Of a stretch of 64,000 nucleotides of DNA, positions 17,969 through 32,246 are shown one piece after another; positions within the stretch are counted from its first letter, which is position 1, and every line of letters begins with the position of its first letter. Position numbers and translations under genes: made by a program. A model generated the notes under the pieces. That model was not told the DNA's origin. It made no database searches and was given only the letters and a program-made list of their open reading frames with translations. The DNA comes from Escherichia coli (GTDB lineage: Bacteria; Pseudomonadota; Gammaproteobacteria; Enterobacterales; Enterobacteriaceae), in NCBI RefSeq assembly GCF_017348835.2, contig NZ_CP072315.1, one strand, 5' to 3'.

Positions 17969-18265
17969 ATGATCAATAATGATTACCCGTTAAACACGCT
18001 CAACCAGCTGCGTCCCTTGCTCATTGGTTTTCGCAAGGCGAATGGCCTGACGCAAAAAGACCTGTCCGAAAGGTTAGGCGTCACTCAACAGACATACTCA
18101 CGTCTGGAAGCCAACCCTGCCAGTGCGAGCATTGAACGGCTATTCAAGGTGTTTTCCATCCTGGGCGTAAAAATCAGCTTCTCCTCGGCAACCACCTCTT
18201 CAGAGAGGAAGCAGACGGAAGAAATGCTTAAATCAAACTCACCTGCACGACAGGAGGATTGGTAA
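17969..18265 (+). CDS. hipB: HipB-like HTH (XRE-family) antitoxin
   Basis: 98-aa ORF with HTH segment (LTQKDLSERLGVTQQTYSRLE) directly upstream of the hipA-like gene. Confidence 0.75.
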   Translation: MINNDYPLNTLNQLRPLLIGFRKANGLTQKDLSERLGVTQQTYSRLEANPASASIERLFKVFSILGVKISFSSATTSSERKQTEEMLKSNSPARQEDW

Positions 18266-18269
18266 CGAT

Positions 18270-19595
18270 ATGAGCCGGAAACAGCAACGTCTGGTAATTT
18301 GGATGAACGGCATCAAAGTCGGGTACTGGGAAAAAAGCAAAGGGGTAGACAGCTTAGAATACCTTCCTGAATGGGTTGCTGACGAACAGGGAAGGCCGCT
18401 GTCATTGTCCCTTCCTTTTACTCCCGGGAACCAGGTCTGGCGTGGAAATGTGGTACGTGACTATTTTGATAATTTACTGCCGGACAGCGAAGGCATACGC
18501 AGACGTCTGGCAATGCGTTACAAGGCCGATAGCCTGGAGCCTTTTGATCTGCTGACGGAGCTGGGAAAAGACTGCGTGGGCGCGATACAGCTGCTTCATG
18601 ACGGAGATGAACCCACTGATTTATATTCCGTGAAGTATCACCCGCTTACTGAATCAGAAATTGCGGCAACTTTGCGTAATACCACGGAGACATTGCTACC
18701 GGGCAGGCCAGAAGATAACGACGACTTACGTTTATCTATTGCCGGTGCTCAGGAGAAAACAGCCCTACTGTGGCATGAAGATCGGTGGTGTATGCCGGAG
18801 GGTAATACACCAACGACGCATATATTCAAGCTACCGCTCGGACTTGTGGGGAACATGAAAGCCGACATGAGCTCGTCGGTTGAAAATGAATGGCTCTGCT
18901 CGGTACTTCTCGGCCAGTACGGGCTCCCCGTGGCAAGAACGCAGATTGCTCACTTTGAAGATCAGAAAGCGCTGGTGGTAGAACGTTTTGACCGAAAATG
19001 GTCAGGAGACGGACAATGGATCATTCGTTTACCCCAGGAGGATATGTGTCAGGCCCTGGGCGTTTCGCCATTACGAAAATATCAGGCGGACGGCGGGCCA
19101 GGTATATCGGAAATTATGGAGGTTCTGAGTAATTCAGACCGTGCTGAGCGTGACAAAGCGCAGTTTTTTATGACGCAGATAATTTTCTGGATGATGGCCG
19201 CAACAGATGGCCACGCTAAAAATTTCAGTATTTCTATTGGGCCACAGGGACGTTATCACCTTACACCAAACTATGATGTGTTGTCGGCATGGCCGGTGAT
19301 CGGTCATGGGAACAATCAGATATCCTGGCAGAAGTGCAAACTGGCGATGGCCGTACGTGGCAGTAGCAACTATTACCAGATATATCGAATACAACGACGC
19401 CACTGGATCAGGCATGGTGAGATAACCGGCCTGAGTAAACAGCAGACAGAGGCGATGATAGAGGAAATCATCGCCAGAACCCCGGGTGTCATTGAACGTG
19501 TTAGCGGGCTTCTTCCGGACCAGTTCCCCCAGCAGCTTGCGGAAAGTATTTTTGATGGAATGAGGCAGCAATGCAGGCGCCTGGCTGAGAAATGA
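18270..19595 (+). CDS. hipA: HipA-like Ser/Thr kinase toxin
   Basis: 441-aa ORF, 4 nt after the hipB stop; N-terminal HipA-like coupling region and kinase-like core. Confidence 0.75.
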   Translation: MSRKQQRLVIWMNGIKVGYWEKSKGVDSLEYLPEWVADEQGRPLSLSLPFTPGNQVWRGNVVRDYFDNLLPDSEGIRRRLAMRYKADSLEPFDLLTELGKDCVGAIQLLHDGDEPTDLYSVKYHPLTESEIAATLRNTTETLLPGRPEDNDDLRLSIAGAQEKTALLWHEDRWCMPEGNTPTTHIFKLPLGLVGNMKADMSSSVENEWLCSVLLGQYGLPVARTQIAHFEDQKALVVERFDRKWSGDGQWIIRLPQEDMCQALGVSPLRKYQADGGPGISEIMEVLSNSDRAERDKAQFFMTQIIFWMMAATDGHAKNFSISIGPQGRYHLTPNYDVLSAWPVIGHGNNQISWQKCKLAMAVRGSSNYYQIYRIQRRHWIRHGEITGLSKQQTEAMIEEIIARTPGVIERVSGLLPDQFPQQLAESIFDGMRQQCRRLAEK

Positions 19596-20386: not shown

Positions 20387-21202
20387 ATGAGAGAGCCAAG
20401 ACCACGCCATACCTTGCAGGTCATTCGTGTACCTTCTCTGGAGGTTCAGGACCTGGGGCTGACCAGCTTTGATAGCTGGCTTGACGAGCACGGGTATGAC
20501 AAAACGAATGCCAGAAATAACCGTACCATCTGGGCGAGAGAAGGCGGATGGCATCTGAAACGTTGCAGAAATCTTGAAACTGGCACGGACGATTTCTGGT
20601 TTATCGCTTTCGATGGTAAAGGCGGGAAGATTTACCCGCTGAAAACCCAAAGAGACTACCGGGCTGCATATCGTAAGCTGGAAGCAGAAGGTTATGCGCC
20701 TGCGGTCATCGAGCAAATGACCACAGGCGCAGCATATAACCTGGCCTATCCACGTTCCATCCTAAAACAAGCTGAGACGGCCACCAGCGAGCCAATTCGG
20801 AAACCTGACGTAGATATCCAGGGTGAGCACTGCGAGCGCGTAGTGACGCAACGTAGTGGCGTGGCACAGGGTAAATTCAAAGCTCTGCTCATCGAGAATT
20901 TCGCAGGCCGTTGTGCGGTAACCGGTTGGGTTAATGGAGGTGTCCTGGATGCGGCACACATTGAACATGGAACCCGGTACAATCCGTCTAATGGCATCCT
21001 GATGACTCCAACAATGCATGCGCTGTTTGATGCCGATCTTATGGGCATAGATCCGGCCACCCTGACCGTTCATTTTAAGCCAGGCATTGAGGTGGGCGAG
21101 CTGTTTGAAGGCCGTAAAATCACACCGCTGGTGTACGATCTGGACTTAGAGCGGCTGGCCGTACGCTGGGCAGAATACCAGGGCCTTGCTCAGGACCAAT
21201 GA
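20387..21202 (+). CDS. HNH-family endonuclease
   Basis: 271-aa ORF with HNH-like C-terminal motif (CAVTGW ... LDAAHI ... NGILMTPTMHALFD). Confidence 0.65.
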   Translation: MREPRPRHTLQVIRVPSLEVQDLGLTSFDSWLDEHGYDKTNARNNRTIWAREGGWHLKRCRNLETGTDDFWFIAFDGKGGKIYPLKTQRDYRAAYRKLEAEGYAPAVIEQMTTGAAYNLAYPRSILKQAETATSEPIRKPDVDIQGEHCERVVTQRSGVAQGKFKALLIENFAGRCAVTGWVNGGVLDAAHIEHGTRYNPSNGILMTPTMHALFDADLMGIDPATLTVHFKPGIEVGELFEGRKITPLVYDLDLERLAVRWAEYQGLAQDQ

Positions 21203-23972: not shown

Positions 23973-24791
23973 ATGACTCAAAACCAGGGTTCTGAGCCAG
24001 TACCGGCGAGCCGGACAGGGCAGCTCATCAGCGCCCGGGATATGGCCATGCAGAAATTCGAAGAAGGGATGCGGTTAATCTCGGAAGCGTCGGAACTGTG
24101 CGGTCTCTCTCTCTTCACCAGCAGAATTATGCAGCCCAACGCATTTGGTCTTCCGTCGTCACTGGATCGCACCATCGAGGAGGGGCGTAAGGAAATTGAC
24201 CGTAAAACGTGGAAAAGGCTCTTTGAAGAAACAGGTATGGACCGGTACTGGAACCATAAGCAAAAAGAAGCCTTTAACGAATCCCTTCGTACGGATCCGC
24301 CCGTCGCTTCCCTGGAGATTGTTAAGGGAACATTACAGCATGCACTGGCTAACAGACGAGACACCCTTGCAGAAGGTTTCGTTGATGTTCTCAACAAGCT
24401 TGACCGAAGTTTCAAAAGCAATGCCAGGCAATATACAATGCCAAAAAAGCTTGTTCTTCGGGGGATTTTTCCTGGTGTGAACGTGCTGAGGTACAACGGT
24501 TTCTCGCAGGACAATCACTTTTGTTTACGCGACTTTGAGAATATTGTATGCATCTGTTCTGATACTCCAACACCTGCAACCGGCGGTGGGCTGAGTATGG
24601 TCGACAGGCTGACGGCCATGAGAAATACAGAATTCACAGGCGAGGTCAGTGATGAGAATGGCTGGCGGTGTCGCCTGTTTGAGAATGGAAACGTTCATAT
24701 TTGCATCGACAGTATCTCGCTTCTGAATGCTCTGAACGATCTTATCAGCATATATTTTGCAAACCAGCTTCCGGCCGCAGGAAAAAAATGA
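23973..24791 (+). CDS. Hypothetical protein
   Basis: ATG at 23973 has a GGAGTG ribosome-binding site (track ORF starts at 23961); stop overlaps the next gene's start (ATGA at 24788-24791). Confidence 0.5.
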   Translation: MTQNQGSEPVPASRTGQLISARDMAMQKFEEGMRLISEASELCGLSLFTSRIMQPNAFGLPSSLDRTIEEGRKEIDRKTWKRLFEETGMDRYWNHKQKEAFNESLRTDPPVASLEIVKGTLQHALANRRDTLAEGFVDVLNKLDRSFKSNARQYTMPKKLVLRGIFPGVNVLRYNGFSQDNHFCLRDFENIVCICSDTPTPATGGGLSMVDRLTAMRNTEFTGEVSDENGWRCRLFENGNVHICIDSISLLNALNDLISIYFANQLPAAGKK

Positions 24792-25993
24792 TGATTGAAA
24801 ATGATAAAGAAAAAAGCCTGAACGATGCTACCCCGCCAGAGGTGCAGAATGACATCCGCAGCGAATCCACTGAAAAATCAAAGGAAATGGGTCGTTCAAG
24901 GTACTCATCTATCGCGATGATCGATTACTTCAATGCAATCGAACGTCTGTGCAAAGAGAAAGAAATTAACCCGGAAAATATCGATCTGAGCTTCAAAGTT
25001 CACTGGCTCAGAAACGCTGTTGGCGGCTCGTTTGCAAGGTCACAGGAGATGTTCGCGGAGTACCAGAAGTATGTTAAAGAGGTTCCTGAAGAGGCCCGTT
25101 ACCTGGATATACCCGATGAGGTAAAGGTTGCACTCGGCGATATTATCTCGTACATCACCTGGCACTACCGTAGAAGCTATACCGCAATACAGAATGATAG
25201 TGTTAAAAAAGCTGAAGCACGTAGCATGCAGCTGGAGGAGGAGGTAACGCAGCTGTTACAGCGGCTTGAGCAAAGCGCTACCGATATGGATGAGCTGAAA
25301 CTTGAGAATCAGGCACTACAGGGTCGATTAGAGATCCGGGACAGTACCGTCAAGGAGTTAGAAACAAGGCTGAATGTTGCCGAAGCAGAACTCGAAACCT
25401 GCCATCACCAGTTAGATAGCACACGGCATGAATTGAGCCTCGCACAGCAGTCAAATGACTCACTCTCCCAGCAACTGGCTGAACGTAAAACAGAGATCGC
25501 TGGTCACCTTGAATATCAAAAAAAGCTGAACGAAGAGATCAACACGCAGCGTTCTGATAACGCCGGTCTTTCCAGACAATGCGACCAGTTAAGTCAGACT
25601 GTGTCAGATACAAAGGCAGAGAGGGACAGGTTTGAACAGGAATTGATTGCTGCACAGAACCTTTGTACTGAGCTGAAAAGTGCACTGTCCGGGAAAGAGG
25701 GTGACCTGGTGGCGGTGAATGCCGAGCTTACTGAACTCCATAAACTAAACGAGTCGCTGAGCGCCGACCTGAATAAAGTAACTTTGGTCAGCCAGGGCTA
25801 TGAAGCGGAAGTGGCTGAACAAAGCAATGAACTCAAAACGCTCCAGGCCAAAGTAATGAAGCTGGAAGCTACCCTGGAGGCGGAGAAAACAATCTCAGAA
25901 TCCCTAAAAGGCACCATTGATACATTAACTGGTGCAATGGCAGGGGGAGGTACTGGAAAGTCAAAACAGCCGCGTAGCAGAAAAACATCATGA
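24788..25993 (+). CDS. Coiled-coil protein (KfrA-like architecture suspected)
   Basis: About 401 aa from ATG 24788; about 150-aa N-terminal domain then a long heptad-rich Glu/Leu/Gln/Lys helical region. Confidence 0.5.
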   Translation: MMIENDKEKSLNDATPPEVQNDIRSESTEKSKEMGRSRYSSIAMIDYFNAIERLCKEKEINPENIDLSFKVHWLRNAVGGSFARSQEMFAEYQKYVKEVPEEARYLDIPDEVKVALGDIISYITWHYRRSYTAIQNDSVKKAEARSMQLEEEVTQLLQRLEQSATDMDELKLENQALQGRLEIRDSTVKELETRLNVAEAELETCHHQLDSTRHELSLAQQSNDSLSQQLAERKTEIAGHLEYQKKLNEEINTQRSDNAGLSRQCDQLSQTVSDTKAERDRFEQELIAAQNLCTELKSALSGKEGDLVAVNAELTELHKLNESLSADLNKVTLVSQGYEAEVAEQSNELKTLQAKVMKLEATLEAEKTISESLKGTIDTLTGAMAGGGTGKSKQPRSRKTS

Positions 25994-26056: not shown

Positions 26057-26260
26057 TCAGCCCGTCCGCAGGAGTTTTCGTCCTTCAGTCAACAAATGCA
26101 CTACCTTTTTTGAGTCTCCACTTTCCAGAGCAGAAAACACGTTACCGATTCTACCAACAGCTTGTATCTGAGTGATAACCCCAGTCTTGTAATCATCTAG
26201 GATCCCTGACAGGAAAGCGTTCAGTTTTGTCTGTTCGCTTAGCGAAAGCATGTAGGACAT
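26057..26260 (-). CDS. Hypothetical small protein
   Basis: 67-aa ORF immediately downstream of the 439-aa gene. Confidence 0.35.
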   Translation of the reverse strand: MSYMLSLSEQTKLNAFLSGILDDYKTGVITQIQAVGRIGNVFSALESGDSKKVVHLLTEGRKLLRTG

Positions 26261-26272
26261 TTTTTCTCCATT

Positions 26273-27592
26273 TTAAGCAGGTGTGTCAGTTGAAAGAGGT
26301 TTGCGTGATTCTGGAAAATGAGGCAGCACCATAGTTTCAGATGCTGTGGTCGCATCCCAGTGCCACCATCCATAAGGCCCATATTCACGGTTGTAATAAT
26401 CTTTTTTGAGTTGCTTTCGGGCCAGATAAGCAGGAGTGGCCATACCAAATACTTCCATCGGGAACGGCTTATCGCTTTTTGTGTCGAGCAGGTAGAAGTC
26501 AGGGAACACCTCACTAATACTCGCATCATAACGCATGGGCTTAACGTACTGCCGGTGCTCTGCATCCAGCTTTTCTGCAACAACCGCCTCATAGGAGGAG
26601 TCCAGAGGTATCCAGTTCTCGCTAACGTGCATCAGCACAATTTGATGAGCTCTTACAGAAGGGCCTCTGCCGGTTACCACAGCTGGTGACGTCAACGCAA
26701 AGACAACTATTTTCGCCCCGGATTTCCATGCTGCGTACTCCGATGAAAATCGTTTCTTTACGCTATCCCAATGGACTTCTGAATTGAAAAAAATCAGCGG
26801 TAGCCCCCCAAAATTCCGCAGGGGTAAAAATTTAAGTGGCTTCTCATGCTTTTCAGCATCGTAGCGAGGTAAAACTGACAGGAGCATGAGACGTTTATCA
26901 CTCATCGCCTGTGATGAAAGACGCTGAATTTGCGACTGAGCGACAGGTTGTTTCGGGTCAGGTACACCAATGAATAAATGGTCACCTATGCAGGCTCTGC
27001 CGGTACGAATTTGTTTAGCGGTTTCAAGCAGACGATACCGTACCAGTGAATCGTTACGTTTCCCTGCCATTTTCGGGTACCAGACATTCAGACCAGACTC
27101 TGTCCACAAAAGACTAAGCAAGCCCAGGAGGGTCATTGAGGCCTGACCTCCTTCTGGTCGCTGAACATGGGGCAGGGGAGGCACTTCTGATTTTTCAGGA
27201 GGATCTTTCTCTGTCATACCGATACCGAGCCTTACAGCCATATCACCTTCGGTTGTAATCCGGACCACACCACTCGCATATCCTTTCAGGCCGGTATGCC
27301 GGGCATCAAGGGAGAAGAATACACAGGAAGGATCATGCTCAATGCCCGTGTTAGCGGCTTTGACGAGAATAAAGGCATCACCGTTCGGTAAAGCACGAAC
27401 ATAAAGTCGCTTTTCTCCTTTTCCACGACATCCGCAGGTGATGACTGATTTTTGACCTGAGGTGTGGTGTGCCTTTTTAAGAGCCGACTGCCACCCTTTA
27501 GCAAACTCATCCTGCGTTTGAAAGTCAGGTGAATACCTTTTGACGTTTGGATCGTCGTCGTAAGCAATCATCACTGCGAATTTTTGGCTCAT
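26273..27592 (-). CDS. Hypothetical 439-aa protein with Cys/His-rich N-terminal region
   Basis: Long ORF co-oriented with and downstream of the C5-methyltransferase gene; CGCRGKG and HDPSC motifs; no recognised catalytic signature. Confidence 0.55.
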   Translation of the reverse strand: MSQKFAVMIAYDDDPNVKRYSPDFQTQDEFAKGWQSALKKAHHTSGQKSVITCGCRGKGEKRLYVRALPNGDAFILVKAANTGIEHDPSCVFFSLDARHTGLKGYASGVVRITTEGDMAVRLGIGMTEKDPPEKSEVPPLPHVQRPEGGQASMTLLGLLSLLWTESGLNVWYPKMAGKRNDSLVRYRLLETAKQIRTGRACIGDHLFIGVPDPKQPVAQSQIQRLSSQAMSDKRLMLLSVLPRYDAEKHEKPLKFLPLRNFGGLPLIFFNSEVHWDSVKKRFSSEYAAWKSGAKIVVFALTSPAVVTGRGPSVRAHQIVLMHVSENWIPLDSSYEAVVAEKLDAEHRQYVKPMRYDASISEVFPDFYLLDTKSDKPFPMEVFGMATPAYLARKQLKKDYYNREYGPYGWWHWDATTASETMVLPHFPESRKPLSTDTPA

Positions 27593-27616
27593 AGTAGTCT
27601 CCTAAACAGGAAGTTT

Positions 27617-27784
27617 AATATCCCAACCAGAGCAACACTTCCTGAGCGTCATACTGTTCCTTTACGCCCATGTCGCTAAAGAATTCTTCGAAATCTGTTT
27701 CGGGAACGCAATGCCTGGACAGTTCTTGTAATGCTCGTTCTTTAGATACCGTCTCACCTTCAGCTGATTCGAAATACGTCATGG
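27617..27784 (-). CDS. Hypothetical 55-aa acidic protein
   Basis: ATG at 27784; MTYFESAEGETVSKERALQELSRHCVPETDFEEFFSDMGVKEQYDAQEVLLWLGY; lies between the methyltransferase and the 439-aa gene; not in the ORF track (below 60 aa). Confidence 0.3.
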
Positions 27785-27842
27785 TTGACCTCTGACATTA
27801 TTACAACAATCTTAAGCATTTAAATTGATGAAGGAGCTCAGG

Positions 27843-29270
27843 TCAGCTGACTTCGTCGTAAAACTGCCGCAAGCGCTGGGAGGCTGCAAATTCAATTCGT
27901 GACTTCAGCAGTTTGGCGACGGCCGCAAAGACATCAACGACCACGGAGTTCCCAAACTGTCTGTAAGCCTGTGTATTGGACACAGGGATACGGAAAACAC
28001 TTTCCCCGGGTTTATCGAAGCCCATTAGCCTGCTGCATTCACGTGGCGTTAGCATGCGTGGCCGACGGTCCATGTTGTATGTGTTATGGAAATCAGTTTC
28101 TCCCAGTTCATGAGACCAGCCCCGATCAATAAGAATTTCAGATCCGTCTTTCATATAGCGGCTTGAGAGGGTTCTGGTGACACTATTAACATTGGAAGGA
28201 TCTACTAGTCCAAAACCAAAACCATTGCCTTTTGCCGCATGTTTCTTTGCATAGTTGTATAAGTACTCCCAGAGTTTAGGGGAGAGGATGTATTTACTAT
28301 CTACGCTCGGATCCAGTAAATCTGAGAGAGAAGGGCGCTTGTCCGGATAAAAGTCTTTAATGTCTCTCAGAGTAAAACCGTCTTTCAGACGTAGGTCGCG
28401 GCGAAAACCAATAAGGACGATACGTTCACGGTGCTGGGGTCGGAAATGACGGCCATCGATGACTTTAGGATCATCCGCGCCCGTGCTTTCGCTGTTTGCG
28501 ACGTCGTAGCCAAGCTCATCGAGCGTTTTCATGATGATGTTAAAGGTATTACCCTTATCGTGACTCTTCAGATTTTTTACGTTTTCCAGAACAAAAATTG
28601 CAGGTTGTTTTGCCCGGATGATCCTGGCCACATCAAAGAAGAGCGTACCCTGAGTGTCGCACTCGAAACCGTGTTTGCGACCCATAGAGTTCTTTTTACT
28701 GACACCGGCGATGCTGAATGGCTGGCATGGAAATCCCGCAAGAAGAACATCATGATCCGGGATAGAGGCATCGATAAATTTGTATGCCTCGTCATCAGTA
28801 ACCTCGGGCCGGTTGCTAAGAGTGATGTCACGGATGTCTGAATTGAAGCGGTGCTCGTTCTCATCGCAATACCAGTTCGCCCGGTAAGTACGGCTGGAAT
28901 AAGTATTCCATTCGCTCGTGAAAAGACATTTACCACCGATGGCATCAAATCCGCTTCGCAGTCCACCTATCCCTGCAAACAGATCGATAAAGCTAAAGTG
29001 CCTGTCCTCATAATCAGCAGGTCGTGAAGGTATTAAAGTCTGTAGATAGCGTCCATCTGCGATACTCAGCTCACAATGCTCAGGTATGCATGTAACCTGA
29101 CGTTTAAGGGATGCACGGGACCAATTACTGCCATTTTCATCATTTAATACCTGAGCCAGATATTTCAGGTCATAAATGGTCGAAGCTGTTAACAAAGTTT
29201 TGTGGATCAGAGATGGTGTTTTATCCACATCATTCAGGTCTGTCTCAAGATCATGAGTGTAACGTTTCAT
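27843..29270 (-). CDS. DNA (cytosine-5)-methyltransferase, Dcm-like
   Basis: C5-MTase motifs I ([10 protein letters not shown]), IV (GFPCQPFS), VI (ENV) and X (QFGNSV); likely ATG at 29270 (about 475 aa), alternative GTG at 29312. Confidence 0.85.
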
Positions 29271-29481
29271 CCAAACTCTCTCAGGAATAATATCTTTGAG
29301 ATAGATTAACACGCTTAATTTGGATTATTTTTTGGTTCAGGTTCTAAATTTATTGTGATTATTCTGCCTTTAAGTTGCAAAAAGATTGGTTTTAAGCCCG
29401 CCCATGAAATAATGACTTGTTAAAATACTGCCTGTAAATAGGCTTGTGGATACATGTCTGTACTCAACAAATCAAGGTGAA

Positions 29482-30000
29482 ATGATGTTTTTTTTAACAA
29501 AGTTACTTTTGCCCATCATGATTGTTGTATTCCCAGTGGCGTCCTGGGGGAACTCAACAACTTTTGAGGCAAAGGTGGTTAAGATTGTTGACGGTGACAC
29601 CATAACTGCGTTGGATGCTCAAAACACAACCATCAAAATACGGATGTATGGTATAGACGCTCCTGAATCTAAACAGGCTTTTGGCCAAAAAGCAAAACAG
29701 GCCTTAACCACAGCTATAGCAACTAAAATCGTTACCGTGATAGACCATGGTACGGATATCTATGGCCGTATGTTAGGTACCATCTGGTTAGATGGATATG
29801 ATATCAATGCCTCTATGGTGGACAGTGGATATGCGTGGGTTTATCGGTTCGAAGATAACGCCATTGTCCCTGGCTATATCAAATATGAATCCGCAGCACA
29901 AAAGGAGGCAAAAGGGTTATGGGCAGACACCAACCCTGTCCCACCATGGCAGTGGAGACAGGCAAACGAAAAGCCCAGAAAGGTGAAAGAGAAGAAATAA
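29482..30000 (+). CDS. Secreted thermonuclease (staphylococcal nuclease-like) protein
   Basis: ATG at 29482 after an AAGGTGA ribosome-binding site; N-terminal signal-like helix; SNase-like motifs (GDTIT, IRMYGIDAPE, DxYGR, GLW). Confidence 0.7.
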   Translation: MMFFLTKLLLPIMIVVFPVASWGNSTTFEAKVVKIVDGDTITALDAQNTTIKIRMYGIDAPESKQAFGQKAKQALTTAIATKIVTVIDHGTDIYGRMLGTIWLDGYDINASMVDSGYAWVYRFEDNAIVPGYIKYESAAQKEAKGLWADTNPVPPWQWRQANEKPRKVKEKK

Positions 30001-30002
30001 CC

Positions 30003-30899
30003 ATGATGAAAGAGCCTCATCCGTTACTTCAGTTGGTACTAAACGATTCCGGTCGTCTAACCATGCCTGTTTATTATAGAGATCAACAGTATTGCCCGAC
30101 TTGCCTTACAAAGGTGTTGAAGAGTGAGGATGGAAGTTTGGCGCACCTCGGGGAAATAAATCAAAATACATGTAGACCTTCTATTTCAGTAGTTGTGACA
30201 AAAGCAATTATTGAAATGTTATGTGACGGGGAAAAAATATATGTAAATCCAATACGACACCGAGGCCGGGTGCTGGCACCCTCAGTAATTTTTTCTCCCG
30301 ACACTCACACTTTCAAACCGTTTATAAATACAGACTATCAGCCTGTGGGAGCAAACTGGAAAAGTGAAAAGGGATATAAACTCGGTCTGTTTTATCTCAA
30401 AGATCGAGCCAACTCTATCAATAAAGAGGAATTTGATTTCATTGCCGTTATAGACCCTGAGGCAATGCAGAAAGAATTTATTTCGGCCTGGTCTGAGGTT
30501 GATGAAAAAAATCCATTGGAAACGCTGAAGCAGATCTTACGATCTAAAAACAACTCTTCTTTATGGGTAAAATGGCCTGGCAAAATTGAGCATGCGCAAA
30601 AAGGAAATTACAACGAAAATTACTGGTTCGATTATCAATCTGATAATCAGGAAGTGAACTGTACGGTCTCTGTTGTAGGTATCGAAGGTAACAGTTCCGG
30701 TGAGACAATTTATAGATTGCAAACTTTGCTAAAGCGTAAGCTCAATGAATATCAACTGGTTCGGTCTTTAGGGACTATTATGCTTCTTGATAATACCGGG
30801 AATATGATTCCATCAAACCATCCTTATTTTGAAGTCATCTCAAAAGCATGTATAAATGGAGTGCGTGACTTTGTTCGTCAAAACCCGTGGGTAGTCTGA
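30003..30899 (+). CDS. Hypothetical protein
   Basis: ATG 3 nt after the nuclease stop gives 298 aa; the track ORF from 29919 is an upstream extension overlapping the nuclease. Confidence 0.5.
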   Translation: MMKEPHPLLQLVLNDSGRLTMPVYYRDQQYCPTCLTKVLKSEDGSLAHLGEINQNTCRPSISVVVTKAIIEMLCDGEKIYVNPIRHRGRVLAPSVIFSPDTHTFKPFINTDYQPVGANWKSEKGYKLGLFYLKDRANSINKEEFDFIAVIDPEAMQKEFISAWSEVDEKNPLETLKQILRSKNNSSLWVKWPGKIEHAQKGNYNENYWFDYQSDNQEVNCTVSVVGIEGNSSGETIYRLQTLLKRKLNEYQLVRSLGTIMLLDNTGNMIPSNHPYFEVISKACINGVRDFVRQNPWVV

Positions 30900-30946
30900 C
30901 GGTCAACTATAAAGCATAATATAATTAGTAATAACAAGGAACAGAC

Positions 30947-31354
30947 ATGAATGAAAACTCAGTAATCTTAATAAGTTTATTTTGGTTTTTTTTGGGATCG
31001 AGTGTTGTAGCTGGTTTTATGGATGCATCATTATATTGCTGGATTTTTGCAGCCATAAGCGCATTGTTTCTTCTTTCGGTGATACAAACACCAAAGGAGT
31101 TAACGGTATCTATTAGTCATATGACAAGCAAAACGCTGATCTCAAAGACAGATGATGGATACACATTTAGCATTTCACCTTACGGAGACGGGTACCGCTT
31201 ATCAGTCTCGCCTGAAAATCGTCACAATGGTACCCAAAGCTTTGACGGCTGGTTCCCACGTTTTTTTTCCGAACCACAGTATGCCAAATCATCTTTAACT
31301 AAATTTCTCGGTGAGTCCTTAGTATGGGAAGAAGATTCAAGTAATGCTCTATGA
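30947..31354 (+). CDS. Hypothetical small membrane protein
   Basis: 135-aa ORF with two N-terminal hydrophobic helices; AT-rich context. Confidence 0.45.
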   Translation: MNENSVILISLFWFFLGSSVVAGFMDASLYCWIFAAISALFLLSVIQTPKELTVSISHMTSKTLISKTDDGYTFSISPYGDGYRLSVSPENRHNGTQSFDGWFPRFFSEPQYAKSSLTKFLGESLVWEEDSSNAL

Positions 31355-31399
31355 GATTACTTATTATAAATTTTTCTATTAATCTCCATGGAGTGATAT

Positions 31400-31654
31400 A
31401 TGAATTTGGCCTATTTTTTATTTTTGTCTATAACTGTTATGCTTACGAGCTTTATTATTAAATCACTTGTCGTATTGGTAAAGTTCAAATTACTTCGTGA
31501 TGAACGTCTCGAATATACCAGCAATAAAAATATTGATGAGATGTACGATTTAATGAATGCGAAGGAAGAAATCCTCATAAGGCATCATAAGCAGATGTTG
31601 GCATTGCATCTTTCACTATTAATATTCGTTCTATTTATTGCTTACATTTACTAA
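31400..31654 (+). CDS. Hypothetical small membrane protein
   Basis: 84-aa ORF with hydrophobic N- and C-terminal helices. Confidence 0.4.
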   Translation: MNLAYFLFLSITVMLTSFIIKSLVVLVKFKLLRDERLEYTSNKNIDEMYDLMNAKEEILIRHHKQMLALHLSLLIFVLFIAYIY

Positions 31655-31691
31655 AAATAATTTTATTCAACATTTCAACAAAGGGTTTTCA

Positions 31692-31979
31692 ATGGAAAGC
31701 TTCGAAACTGAACAAATGATTCAATATGCTTTCTACATAAATATCGTAATAACGACTGGTTTGGCATGGTTTTGCTTGCGGTCAGGATTGCATTACAATT
31801 TTTTCAGAAAAGCAGAGAGTGCCAGAACAAAAGGGCTGAGTAGTACCTCTACTGAACACGGTCCAGCAATAGTGAGACTAAAGAAGCTACAAGCATTAGT
31901 AGATTTTATTAGTAACTGTGCTTTTCTAATCCTTTCAATTGGCACAGCTTATATTTTGTATGTTTGGAGCCACAGTTAA
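31692..31979 (+). CDS. Hypothetical small membrane protein
   Basis: ATG at 31692 gives 95 aa (MESFETEQ...); the track start at 31638 overlaps the previous gene. Confidence 0.4.
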   Translation: MESFETEQMIQYAFYINIVITTGLAWFCLRSGLHYNFFRKAESARTKGLSSTSTEHGPAIVRLKKLQALVDFISNCAFLILSIGTAYILYVWSHS

Positions 31980-32015
31980 CTCATACGAGGTAACTTCGGC
32001 AGGTAACAACTTCTA

Positions 32016-32246
32016 ATGCAGGACTTTAATAACTCTAAGGGATTCTACATGAAAAAAGACGATCTAATTACGCGTTGTAAATTACTTAAAGGCGAACGCG
32101 ATGAGTCTATCTTTACCATATTAATTGGGATAGTAGTAAAGCTGGGGCTGGTAGGCCTGGCATTCTATCTGTTGCTTGGTTCCACGATTGATTGGTCAAG
32201 CTGGAAAACTTATGCCGCCATGTTGATCTTGGGAGCATTTCTCTAA
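32016..32246 (+). CDS. Hypothetical small membrane protein
   Basis: 76-aa ORF (alternative start at 32049) with a hydrophobic helix. Confidence 0.4.
   Translation: MQDFNNSKGFYMKKDDLITRCKLLKGERDESIFTILIGIVVKLGLVGLAFYLLLGSTIDWSSWKTYAAMLILGAFL

What the first reader, a model, noticed from the sequence alone, without database searches (positions are those of the whole stretch)
29482..30899. Secreted thermonuclease-like enzyme with a coupled downstream partner
A signal-peptide-bearing SNase-fold nuclease (IRMYGIDAPE, DxYGR, GLW motifs) ends 3 nt before a 298-aa gene of unknown function. An exported nuclease with an adjacent partner could be a nuclease-inhibitor, toxin-immunity or biofilm or entry-exclusion pair. 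It lies immediately next to the methyltransferase operon on the opposite strand.
Basis: inference. Interest (0 to 1): 0.5.

Follow-up and report, generated by a model that had tools for sequence, protein, structure and literature searches.

The report
Plasmid exported nuclease with orphan partner
A two-gene operon in the backbone of IncHI resistance plasmids encodes an ordinary exported staphylococcal-type nuclease and, tightly coupled to it, a cytoplasmic protein from a tiny plasmid-only family of unknown fold; the pairing is real and conserved, but the partner does not behave like an essential inhibitor or immunity protein.

Summary
Window 29482-30000 encodes a 172-aa SNase-family nuclease with a Sec-type signal peptide and all catalytic and Ca2+-binding residues. 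A 298-aa gene (30003-30899) starts 2 nt after its stop codon. The window is IncHI2 plasmid backbone, and the pair is almost identical in about 1,100 PLSDB plasmids.

The linkage is real. In every lineage examined that carries a full-length partner (down to 20% partner identity, IncHI1 included), an SNase gene lies immediately upstream. The junction ranges from an 8-nt overlap to a 17-nt gap. One contig has the pair without the neighbouring methyltransferase block.

The partner family is tiny: 25 representatives among 1.84 billion proteins. It has no Pfam, PDB or fold match. It is cytoplasmic, neutral in charge, and has an N-terminal CxxC...H...C motif.

The inhibitor or immunity reading is not supported:
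- Four IncHI2 plasmids carry IS1203 inside the partner with the nuclease intact.
- SNase relatives at about 50% identity (IncHI1B), and thousands of other plasmid SNases, stand alone.
- Distant partner relatives stand alone.
- A fused AlphaFold model shows no complex.

My best reading is a periplasmic non-specific nuclease with a dispensable cytoplasmic accessory or modulator. The nuclease is ordinary. The partner is an uncharacterised orphan. Interest is modest.

The parts
29418..29426 (+). Extended -10-like promoter element TGtTAAAAT, about 55 nt upstream of the nuclease start
   Evidence: It is the only recognisably conserved block in the otherwise divergent intergenic region of 8 lineages (TGnTAnAAT-type). 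Function is inferred, not shown.
29474..29479 (+). Shine-Dalgarno AAGGTG for the nuclease gene
   Evidence: Read directly from the sequence.
29482..30000 (+). SNase-family (thermonuclease) gene, 172 aa (171 aa from the PGAP start at 29485)
   Evidence: Pfam PF00565 E=3.9e-24. Aligned to S. aureus nuclease at E=1.3e-10. Annotated 'thermonuclease family protein' WP_001572389.1. dN/dS 0.10-0.23.
29482..29550 (+). Sec-type signal peptide (residues 1 to about 23; cleavage near VAS/SWG)
   Evidence: The n-h-c architecture is visible and conserved in all 11 orthologues. Kyte-Doolittle maximum 2.27. There is no lipobox Cys. No SignalP tool was available.
29563..29934 (+). Catalytic OB-fold SNase domain (residues 28-151) with D39, R54, D59, E62, Y94 and R96
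   Evidence: Residue-by-residue alignment to SNase D21, R35, D40, E43, Y85 and R87. These residues are invariant in alignment A4.
30003..30899 (+). Partner gene, 298 aa, orphan plasmid-restricted family (WP_000975182.1), translationally coupled to the nuclease gene
   Evidence: 2-nt spacer. No Pfam, NCBIfam, PHROG, PADLOC or PDB match. Only 25 representatives in 1.84e9 proteins. dN/dS 0.18-0.24.
30093..30173 (+). N-terminal Cys/His module C31-P-T-C34 ... H48 ... C57 (putative zinc ribbon)
   Evidence: Alignment A1. Modelled as short beta-hairpins at pLDDT 72-87. Only sub-threshold Pfam hits, and in some relatives only: DUF7828 1.6e-4, CoiA_N 0.08-0.2. The cysteines are lost in two SNase-linked subclades.
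30177..30896 (+). Core alpha/beta domain of the partner (residues 59-298), with family-wide invariant P93, W119, S121, G124, G128, W188, E234, L261 and C283
30215..30219 (.). Site where IS1203 interrupts the partner gene in related IncHI2 plasmids (natural knock-out)
27843..29270 (-). Context: divergently transcribed C5-cytosine DNA methyltransferase (475 aa by the PGAP start)
   Evidence: Pfam DNA_methylase 3.8e-75. The best PADLOC model is 'orphan methyltransferase'. Syntenic in most lineages but absent in L017 and broken in L007.
26273..27782 (-). Context: 55-aa ORF (27615-27782) and DUF1173 protein (26273-27592) downstream of the methyltransferase
   Evidence: Pfam DUF1173 5.7e-39. DUF1173 is a PD-(D/E)XK-like fold without the active-site signature plus an N-terminal Zn motif (PMC3045609). 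DUF1173 also faces the SNase gene in IncHI1B plasmids that lack the methyltransferase and the partner.

Best explanation
This is a bicistronic backbone operon of IncHI-type (MOBH / MPF-F) plasmids.

Gene 1 makes a small SNase-family nuclease. It is exported by the Sec pathway and, once the signal peptide is removed, acts in the periplasm (possibly beyond) as a Ca2+-dependent, sequence-non-specific DNase/RNase. It is the same kind of solitary 'thermonuclease' gene carried by thousands of other conjugative plasmids. Its likely job is to destroy free nucleic acid that reaches the cell envelope: foreign or competitor DNA, or extracellular matrix DNA.

Gene 2 is translated from the same mRNA by coupling. 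It yields a cytoplasmic 298-aa protein with an N-terminal Cys2-His-Cys zinc-ribbon-like module and a novel alpha/beta core that carries no catalytic signature. I take it to be a dispensable accessory of the nuclease. Most likely it is a cytoplasmic modulator or safeguard that acts on the nuclease precursor or its expression. It is not an obligate antidote.

Shown: gene structure, family membership of the nuclease, intact active site, conserved adjacency, the narrow distribution of the partner, and the tolerated loss of the partner.

Inferred: export, Ca2+ dependence, periplasmic action, and any physical or regulatory link between the two proteins.
For: Nuclease identity and active site. Signal peptides in all orthologues.

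An SNase gene lies immediately upstream of the partner in every lineage examined that carries a full-length partner. Junctions run from an 8-nt overlap to a 17-nt gap. This includes L015 (partner 20% identical) and L017 (27%), and L017 lacks the methyltransferase/DUF1173 block.

PLSDB counts are near one to one, 1105 against 1103. Both genes are under purifying selection.

The partner has no signal peptide or transmembrane segment.

Precedent: an SNase-type domain can need a restraining module that works in trans. The YokF TNase is toxic without its TNM domain (bioRxiv 10.1101/2025.10.26.684598).

Plasmid establishment regions in Gram-positives also combine C5-methyltransferases with SNase-like genes (PMC8708921).
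Against: No direct sign of interaction. The fused AF2 model with a paired 11-sequence alignment gave pTM 0.43 and unchanged per-domain confidence. This is weak evidence: the alignment is shallow and no PAE is available.

The partner is interrupted by IS1203 while the nuclease is intact in four plasmids.

Related SNases work without it. Distant partner relatives exist without an SNase.

The partner is neutral, not acidic.

S. aureus nuclease is routinely overproduced in the E. coli cytoplasm without an inhibitor (own knowledge), so a safeguard may be unnecessary.

Adjacency across IncH-like plasmids could partly reflect shared ancestry rather than selection.
Confidence: 0.4

Rival explanations
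1. The partner has its own cytoplasmic function and is merely co-transcribed with the nuclease. Candidates are a plasmid establishment, anti-defence or DNA-associated factor. The adjacency would then be inherited operon structure at the edge of a variable region.
For: Distant relatives stand alone: after parA/parB in 131 IncHI5-like Klebsiella/Raoultella plasmids, and next to H-NS elsewhere.

The partner evolves much faster than the nuclease: 52% against 77%, and 20% against 52% identity.

Between L002 and L021 its synonymous divergence is ten times higher (dS 0.53 against 0.054; nucleotide identity 80% against 98%). That indicates allele exchange by recombination exactly at the gene junction.

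The sequence downstream of the partner is a hotspot carrying Thoeris, a type VI secretion cluster, a CBASS-like pair or a PLD gene in different lineages.

No complex was predicted.
Against: Strict adjacency with tight or overlapping junctions is kept in all full-length members, despite saturated divergence and rearranged flanks, including L017. No anti-defence, DNA-binding or other family match was found.
Confidence: 0.3
2. The pair belongs to one larger system with the divergent methyltransferase, 55-aa and DUF1173 genes. This would be a methylation-linked self/non-self DNA-handling module.
For: A shared intergenic region of about 210 bp and conserved synteny in most lineages. DUF1173 still faces the SNase gene in IncHI1B plasmids, close to psiA. 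DUF1173 is PD-(D/E)XK-like.
Against: The components are separable:
- L017 has the pair without the block.
- L007 has a broken methyltransferase with an intact pair.
- pSGH10 has a broken DUF1173 with an intact SNase.

The nuclease is exported and non-specific, so it cannot read cytoplasmic methylation. The methyltransferase scores best as an orphan methyltransferase. hhalign finds no relation between the partner and DUF1173.
Confidence: 0.1
3. Obligate nuclease toxin plus immunity (bacteriocin-like or toxin-antitoxin) pair.
For: An exported nuclease followed by a coupled cytoplasmic gene is the classic layout: barnase-barstar, colicin DNase-Im, B. subtilis NucA-Nin (own knowledge).
Against: Natural IS knock-outs of the partner with an intact nuclease in four conjugative plasmids. 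Partner-less SNase relatives. The mature nuclease is only 149 aa, with no receptor-binding or translocation domain. No PADLOC or toxin-antitoxin match. The partner is large and neutral in charge.
Confidence: 0.03
4. Entry-exclusion or surface-exclusion pair.
For: One envelope-located product, encoded on a conjugative plasmid.
Against: The partner has no signal peptide, lipobox or transmembrane segment. The locus lies between the ter/HipA region and the resistance region, not in a transfer region. IncHI exclusion is attributed to EexA/EexB in Tra2 (own knowledge).
Confidence: 0.03
5. An RP4 ParB-like role: a nuclease serving plasmid maintenance or multimer resolution inside the cell.
For: RP4 ParB is an SNase homologue in the parCBA stability operon (own knowledge).
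Against: No resolvase or ParC-like gene is adjacent. A signal peptide is conserved in all orthologues.
Confidence: 0.04

Closest known systems
Staphylococcus aureus nuclease (SNase / thermonuclease Nuc; Pfam PF00565)
   Same: OB-fold domain, all Ca2+-binding and catalytic residues (D21, R35, D40, E43, R87 equivalents), N-terminal secretion signal, small size.
   Different: Only a distant local match to the S. aureus enzyme (phmmer E=1.3e-10 over residues 30-151; I did not calculate percent identity). It is plasmid-borne in Gram-negatives, so Sec export ends in the periplasm. It has a basic C-terminal tail and a PWxWR motif. It scores below the NCBIfam equivalog cut-offs for EcnA and NucI.
Solitary SNase-type 'thermonuclease family' genes of other conjugative plasmids (IncC, IncHI1B, IncP ParB, others)
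   Same: Same enzyme family, at 37-52% identity. They sit in backbone regions beside nucleoid proteins, antirestriction genes and toxin-antitoxin genes.
   Different: They have no partner gene. In IncHI1B a PLD-family gene or nothing follows the SNase gene.
YokF of B. subtilis prophage SPbeta (SNase domain plus self-inhibiting TNM domain)
   Same: An SNase-type nuclease on a mobile element whose activity is restrained by a separate module that also works in trans.
   Different: YokF is a membrane lipoprotein, and the modulator is a 40-aa C-terminal domain of the same chain. Here there is a separate 298-aa cytoplasmic protein, no sequence relation was shown, and its loss is tolerated.
Nuclease-inhibitor operons (barnase-barstar, Anabaena NucA-NuiA, B. 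subtilis NucA-Nin)
   Same: Gene order and tight coupling of an exported nuclease with a cytoplasmic product (own knowledge).
   Different: The nuclease families differ. Those inhibitors are small and usually acidic, and barstar is indispensable. This partner is large, neutral and dispensable.
CoiA N-terminal zinc module / DUF7828 / DUF7830; DUF1173
   Same: A CxxC...H...C motif at the N-terminus, followed by an alpha/beta domain. Weak Pfam hits occur in a few family members. DUF1173 next door has a comparable layout, a Zn motif plus an inactive PD-(D/E)XK-like domain.

Membership tests
SNase / thermonuclease family (PF00565) | Domain match above the curated threshold | tested here: met
   85.6 bits against a cut-off of 21, E=3.9e-24.
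SNase / thermonuclease family (PF00565) | Ca2+ ligands and catalytic residues (SNase D21, D40, R35, E43, R87) | tested here: met
   D39, D59, R54, E62 and R96 align. They are invariant in 11 orthologues.
SNase / thermonuclease family (PF00565) | Ca2+-dependent hydrolysis of DNA and RNA | not testable with these tools
   Needs an enzyme assay.
Secreted / periplasmic nucleases | Cleavable N-terminal signal peptide | tested here: met
   The n-h-c pattern with small -3/-1 residues is present in all 11 orthologues and supported by hydropathy. No SignalP run and no localisation data.
Nuclease-inhibitor / toxin-immunity pair | The inhibitor is indispensable whenever the nuclease gene is intact | tested here: not met
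   IS1203 lies inside the partner with an intact nuclease in 4 plasmids. Partner-less SNase relatives exist.
Nuclease-inhibitor / toxin-immunity pair | The two genes co-occur as neighbours across relatives | tested here: met
   All full-length partner lineages examined. Distant truncated relatives are unlinked.
Nuclease-inhibitor / toxin-immunity pair | Physical complex of the two proteins | tested here: inconclusive
   The linker-fused AF2 model gave pTM 0.43, which is no support. The alignment is shallow and no PAE or multimer tool was available.
IncHI entry exclusion (EexA/EexB-like) | Membrane or outer-membrane location of the products; location in a transfer region | tested here: not met
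   The partner is soluble and cytoplasmic. The locus is outside Tra2.
RP4 parCBA-type stability operon | SNase homologue in an operon with a site-specific resolvase (ParA) and ParC | tested here: not met
   The neighbours are the methyltransferase operon and the orphan partner. No resolvase is present.
CoiA-like / PD-(D/E)XK proteins (for the partner) | CoiA_N or nuclease domain match above threshold; conserved D...(D/E)xK motif | tested here: not met
   Only sub-threshold N-terminal hits in 2-3 relatives. No conserved acidic motif. No PD-(D/E)XK fold hit.
Known anti-phage defence systems (PADLOC) | Match of either protein to a defence-system model in its expected context | tested here: not met
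   The SNase gives only a weak domain hit to an 'SNc+LTD' model. The partner gives none.

The most novel reading that the evidence does not exclude
The partner may found a new fold family that acts in trans on SNase-type nucleases. One possibility is a cytoplasmic zinc-ribbon protein that gates export or activity of the plasmid's periplasmic nuclease. Another is that it handles, in the cytoplasm, the nucleic acid products the nuclease generates in the envelope. That layout would resemble competence pairs such as an entry nuclease plus a CoiA-like factor. If so, IncHI plasmids would carry a two-compartment DNA-processing or DNA-barrier module that has not been described.
Probability: 0.12. Interest if true: 0.6.

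Novelty: new variant of a known kind. Interest (0 to 1): 0.33.

Why it matters
IncHI1 and IncHI2 plasmids are major carriers of multidrug, colistin and heavy-metal resistance in Salmonella, E. coli and Enterobacter. This operon is part of their conserved backbone: more than 1,400 PLSDB plasmids carry it, and it also occurs in chromosome-sized records. SNase-type genes occur on more than 5,000 plasmids, yet I know of no established physiological role for them and found none in the papers searched. If the nuclease limits uptake of foreign DNA or shapes extracellular DNA, it bears on plasmid competition and biofilm behaviour. If the orphan partner modulates it, that would be a new type of nuclease regulator. 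As it stands, the nuclease is an ordinary, already-annotated family member, and the only new element is an uncharacterised accessory gene.

Tried and rejected
- **Family searches for the partner.** Pfam, NCBIfam, PHROGs and PADLOC gave nothing. PDB sequence searches with the single protein and with a profile gave nothing.
- **Partner versus DUF1173.** hhalign gave 0.2% probability, so this was rejected.
- **CoiA-like or PD-(D/E)XK reading of the partner.** There were only sub-threshold N-terminal hits and no catalytic motif. I keep it as a hint only.
- **Complex prediction.** A linker-fused model with a paired alignment gave pTM 0.43, which is no support.
- **Genome-wide scan.** A scan of 100,044 species genomes found a single IncHI1-like contig. 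That shows how narrow the family is, but it adds no new contexts.
- **Literature.** Searches by plasmid type, family name and protein accession found no functional study of this pair.
- **Leading-region idea for IncHI2.** The block is far from Tra2, and I did not locate oriT. Proximity to psiA was seen only in IncHI1B.
- **Acidic DNA-mimic inhibitor idea.** Rejected on charge.
Full report
**What is there.** The window between 29.4 and 30.9 kb holds two same-strand ORFs.

The first runs from ATG 29482 to TAA 29998-30000. PGAP starts it at the adjacent ATG 29485. An AAGGTG ribosome-binding site precedes it. The second starts at ATG 30003, two bases after that stop codon, and ends at 30899 (298 aa).

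The region is IncHI2 plasmid backbone. The 1.7-kb stretch is at least 99% identical in 1121 of 1139 matching PLSDB plasmids from Escherichia, Salmonella, Enterobacter, Klebsiella and others. One example is pSTM6-275, typed IncHI2A, MOBH, MPF-F. There the genes are annotated 'thermonuclease family protein' and 'hypothetical protein'. The operon lies between the ter/HipA/HNH region and the resistance region, not in a transfer region.

**The nuclease.** The 172-aa product matches Pfam SNase at E=3.9e-24 and aligns with S. aureus nuclease over residues 30-151. Reading that alignment residue by residue, the Ca2+ ligands and catalytic residues D21, R35, D40, E43 and R87 correspond to D39, R54, D59, E62 and R96. 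Y85 and Y113 correspond to Y94 and Y121. All are invariant in eleven orthologues.

The N-terminus is a typical Sec signal: Lys in the n-region, a 12-15 residue hydrophobic core, and small residues before the cut. Every orthologue has one, mostly with clear AxA sites and without a lipobox. Export and Ca2+ dependence are inferred, not shown.

SNase-type genes are very common on plasmids. The tblastn search hit its 5000-record limit. In IncC, IncHI1B and small mobilisable plasmids they are solitary genes, sitting beside HU or H-NS, antirestriction genes and toxin-antitoxin genes. The nuclease itself is therefore ordinary.

**The partner.** The 298-aa protein matches nothing in Pfam, NCBIfam, PHROGs, PADLOC or PDB sequences.

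- A word-indexed search of 5.8 billion proteins found 34 relatives, all enterobacterial.
- An exhaustive profile search of 1.84 billion cluster representatives found only 25.
- A scan of one genome from each of 100,044 species found one contig.

The family is thus confined to IncH-like plasmids and their integrated copies.

The protein has no signal peptide or transmembrane segment and is neutral, pI 7.0. It has an N-terminal C-P-T-C...H...C motif that models as small beta-hairpins. This is followed by an alpha/beta core with a few family-wide invariant residues (P93, W119, S121, G124, G128, W188, E234, L261, C283) and no recognisable catalytic motif.

A few relatives give sub-threshold hits of the N-terminal module to DUF7828, DUF7830 and CoiA_N. 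This is a hint of a CoiA-type zinc module, not a membership. There is no profile relation to the neighbouring DUF1173. DUF1173 has itself been described as a zinc motif plus an inactive PD-(D/E)XK-like domain (PMC3045609).

**Is the pair linked?** Yes. I read the context of every divergent full-length partner lineage I could reach. These covered IncHI2-like, IncHI1 and several metagenomic lineages, down to 20-27% partner identity and 49-52% nuclease identity.

In all of them an SNase gene with a signal peptide lies immediately upstream. The junctions are an 8-nt overlap, 4-nt ATGA overlaps, or spacers of 2, 5, 11 or 17 nt. In L017 the pair sits in a different neighbourhood, without the methyltransferase and DUF1173 genes. 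The two-gene unit, rather than the larger block, is therefore what is conserved.

PLSDB counts agree: SNase at >=95% identity in 1105 plasmids, partner at >=95% in 1103. Both genes are under purifying selection, dN/dS 0.10-0.24.

The intergenic region is poorly conserved apart from an extended -10-like TGnTAnAAT element, at window 29418-29426. A separate promoter-like site follows the partner's stop codon, and the downstream genes differ between lineages. The operon therefore looks bicistronic.

**Does the partner behave like an inhibitor, immunity or exclusion protein?** The evidence is mostly against an obligate role.

1. Four IncHI2 plasmids (Shigella flexneri, E. coli, two Salmonella) carry IS1203 inside the partner at window 30215-30219, about codon 72. 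Their nuclease gene is 100% identical and intact.
2. IncHI1B plasmids have an SNase at about 50% identity facing DUF1173. It is followed by a PLD-family gene or by nothing, with no partner.
3. The most distant partner relatives stand alone, and most of them lack the N-terminal 60 residues. In 131 IncHI5-like Klebsiella/Raoultella plasmids the gene follows parA/parB. Elsewhere it sits near H-NS.
4. The mature nuclease and the partner are predicted to be in different compartments.
5. I fused the mature nuclease and the partner with a 30-residue linker, using a paired alignment of 11 lineages. The model gave pTM 0.43. I had calculated that value beforehand for two well-folded but mutually unplaced domains. 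This test is weak, because the alignment is shallow and no PAE is available.

In favour of some functional tie are the strict, tight adjacency and one precedent. The SNase domain of prophage protein YokF is toxic unless restrained by a separate module that also works in trans (bioRxiv 10.1101/2025.10.26.684598).

**How the partner evolves.** It diverges much faster than the nuclease: 52% against 77%, 38% against 64%, and 20% against 52% identity to the window proteins.

Between an Enterobacter-type copy (L002) and an IncHI1 plasmid (L021), the nuclease gene is 98% identical at the DNA level (dS 0.054). The adjacent partner gene is about 80% identical (dS 0.53), and homology ends just after it. 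A recombination boundary therefore coincides with the gene junction.

The partner is the last gene of the conserved block, at the edge of a variable region. Different lineages carry Thoeris, a type VI secretion cluster, a CBASS-like pair or a PLD gene there.

**Conclusion.** The finding is real, but only half of it is remarkable. The nuclease is a standard, already-annotated plasmid SNase. The coupled partner is an uncharacterised orphan family with no detectable fold relatives.

My best reading (confidence 0.4) is a periplasmic non-specific nuclease plus a dispensable cytoplasmic accessory or modulator. The main rival (0.3) is that the partner has an independent function and is simply co-transcribed. 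Obligate toxin-immunity, entry exclusion and an RP4 ParB-like role are each unlikely.

I could not assign a biochemical function to the partner. The experiments listed under next steps would settle it.

Noticed in passing
window 26057-29270 (minus strand): The 'methyltransferase operon' is a C5-cytosine methyltransferase, a 55-aa ORF and DUF1173, with a conserved 67-aa ORF at 26057-26260. The methyltransferase scores best against PADLOC's 'orphan methyltransferase' model. DUF1173 has been described as an inactive PD-(D/E)XK-like domain with an N-terminal Zn motif. It is unresolved whether this is a degenerate restriction-modification system or an anti-restriction module.
   Followed up: partly
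window 23973-25993 (plus strand): A DUF4942 gene overlaps a 401-aa coiled-coil protein, which gives weak LmuB/JetC SMC-like hits in PADLOC. The pair is conserved upstream of the block in IncHI2, IncHI1 and metagenomic relatives. Function unknown.
   Followed up: partly
L002/L005 8.2-9.7 kb; L006 8.6-12.9 kb; L010/L012 downstream of the partner; L021 7980-8759: The sequence just downstream of the partner is a variable hotspot. It holds Thoeris (ThsB TIR plus ThsA Macro), a type VI secretion cluster, an SMODS plus S_4TM (CBASS-like) pair with a large Ig-like protein, or a PLD-family protein without a signal peptide (IncHI1).
   Followed up: partly
L002 vs L021, junction of the SNase and partner genes (window equivalent about 30000): There is a ten-fold jump in synonymous divergence (dS 0.054 to 0.53) exactly at the gene junction. 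This indicates recombinational exchange of partner alleles.
   Followed up: partly
window 29480-29483 (site in relatives H5/H6, locus L032): In two Klebsiella IncHI2 plasmids an IS3-family element is inserted with a 4-bp duplication between the Shine-Dalgarno sequence and the ATG of the nuclease gene. Both coding sequences remain intact. The effect on expression is unknown.
   Followed up: partly
proteins P0033, P0034: Rare chimeric predicted proteins (191-193 aa) join the SNase N-terminal part to the last 50 or so residues of the partner. This suggests internal deletions that fuse the two genes in a few contigs.
   Followed up: no
window 30947-32246 (plus strand): Four small ORFs (135, 84, 113 and 76 aa) with predicted hydrophobic segments follow the operon. 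They have no family match, and the genes called downstream of the partner in the other lineages differ. A promoter-like site (CTGACG-18-TATAAT) sits at 30896-30925.
   Followed up: partly
L002, L003 (records CP010512.1, 4.83 Mb; CALPAM010000002.1, 4.80 Mb): The IncHI1-type version of the whole block also occurs in chromosome-sized records. A paper on Salmonella 4,[5],12:i:- lists cytosine methyltransferase, thermonuclease and phospholipase D genes in an IS26-flanked chromosomal insert (PMC10151351). The block can therefore be integrated into chromosomes.
   Followed up: no
L025 (IncHI1B plasmid pC2-MCR-tmexCD): In IncHI1B plasmids the DUF1173/SNase/PLD/H-NS cluster lies about 3 kb from psiA. 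This suggests a leading or establishment-region location in that lineage. I did not establish the equivalent for IncHI2.
   Followed up: no
window 1-22200: The upstream part of the window carries the ter tellurite-resistance/TerY-VWA cluster, a HipA-family toxin with an HTH partner (17972-19595), an HNH endonuclease-motif gene (20387-21202) and an IS1. From about 36.7 kb onward the window is a mosaic resistance region.
   Followed up: no
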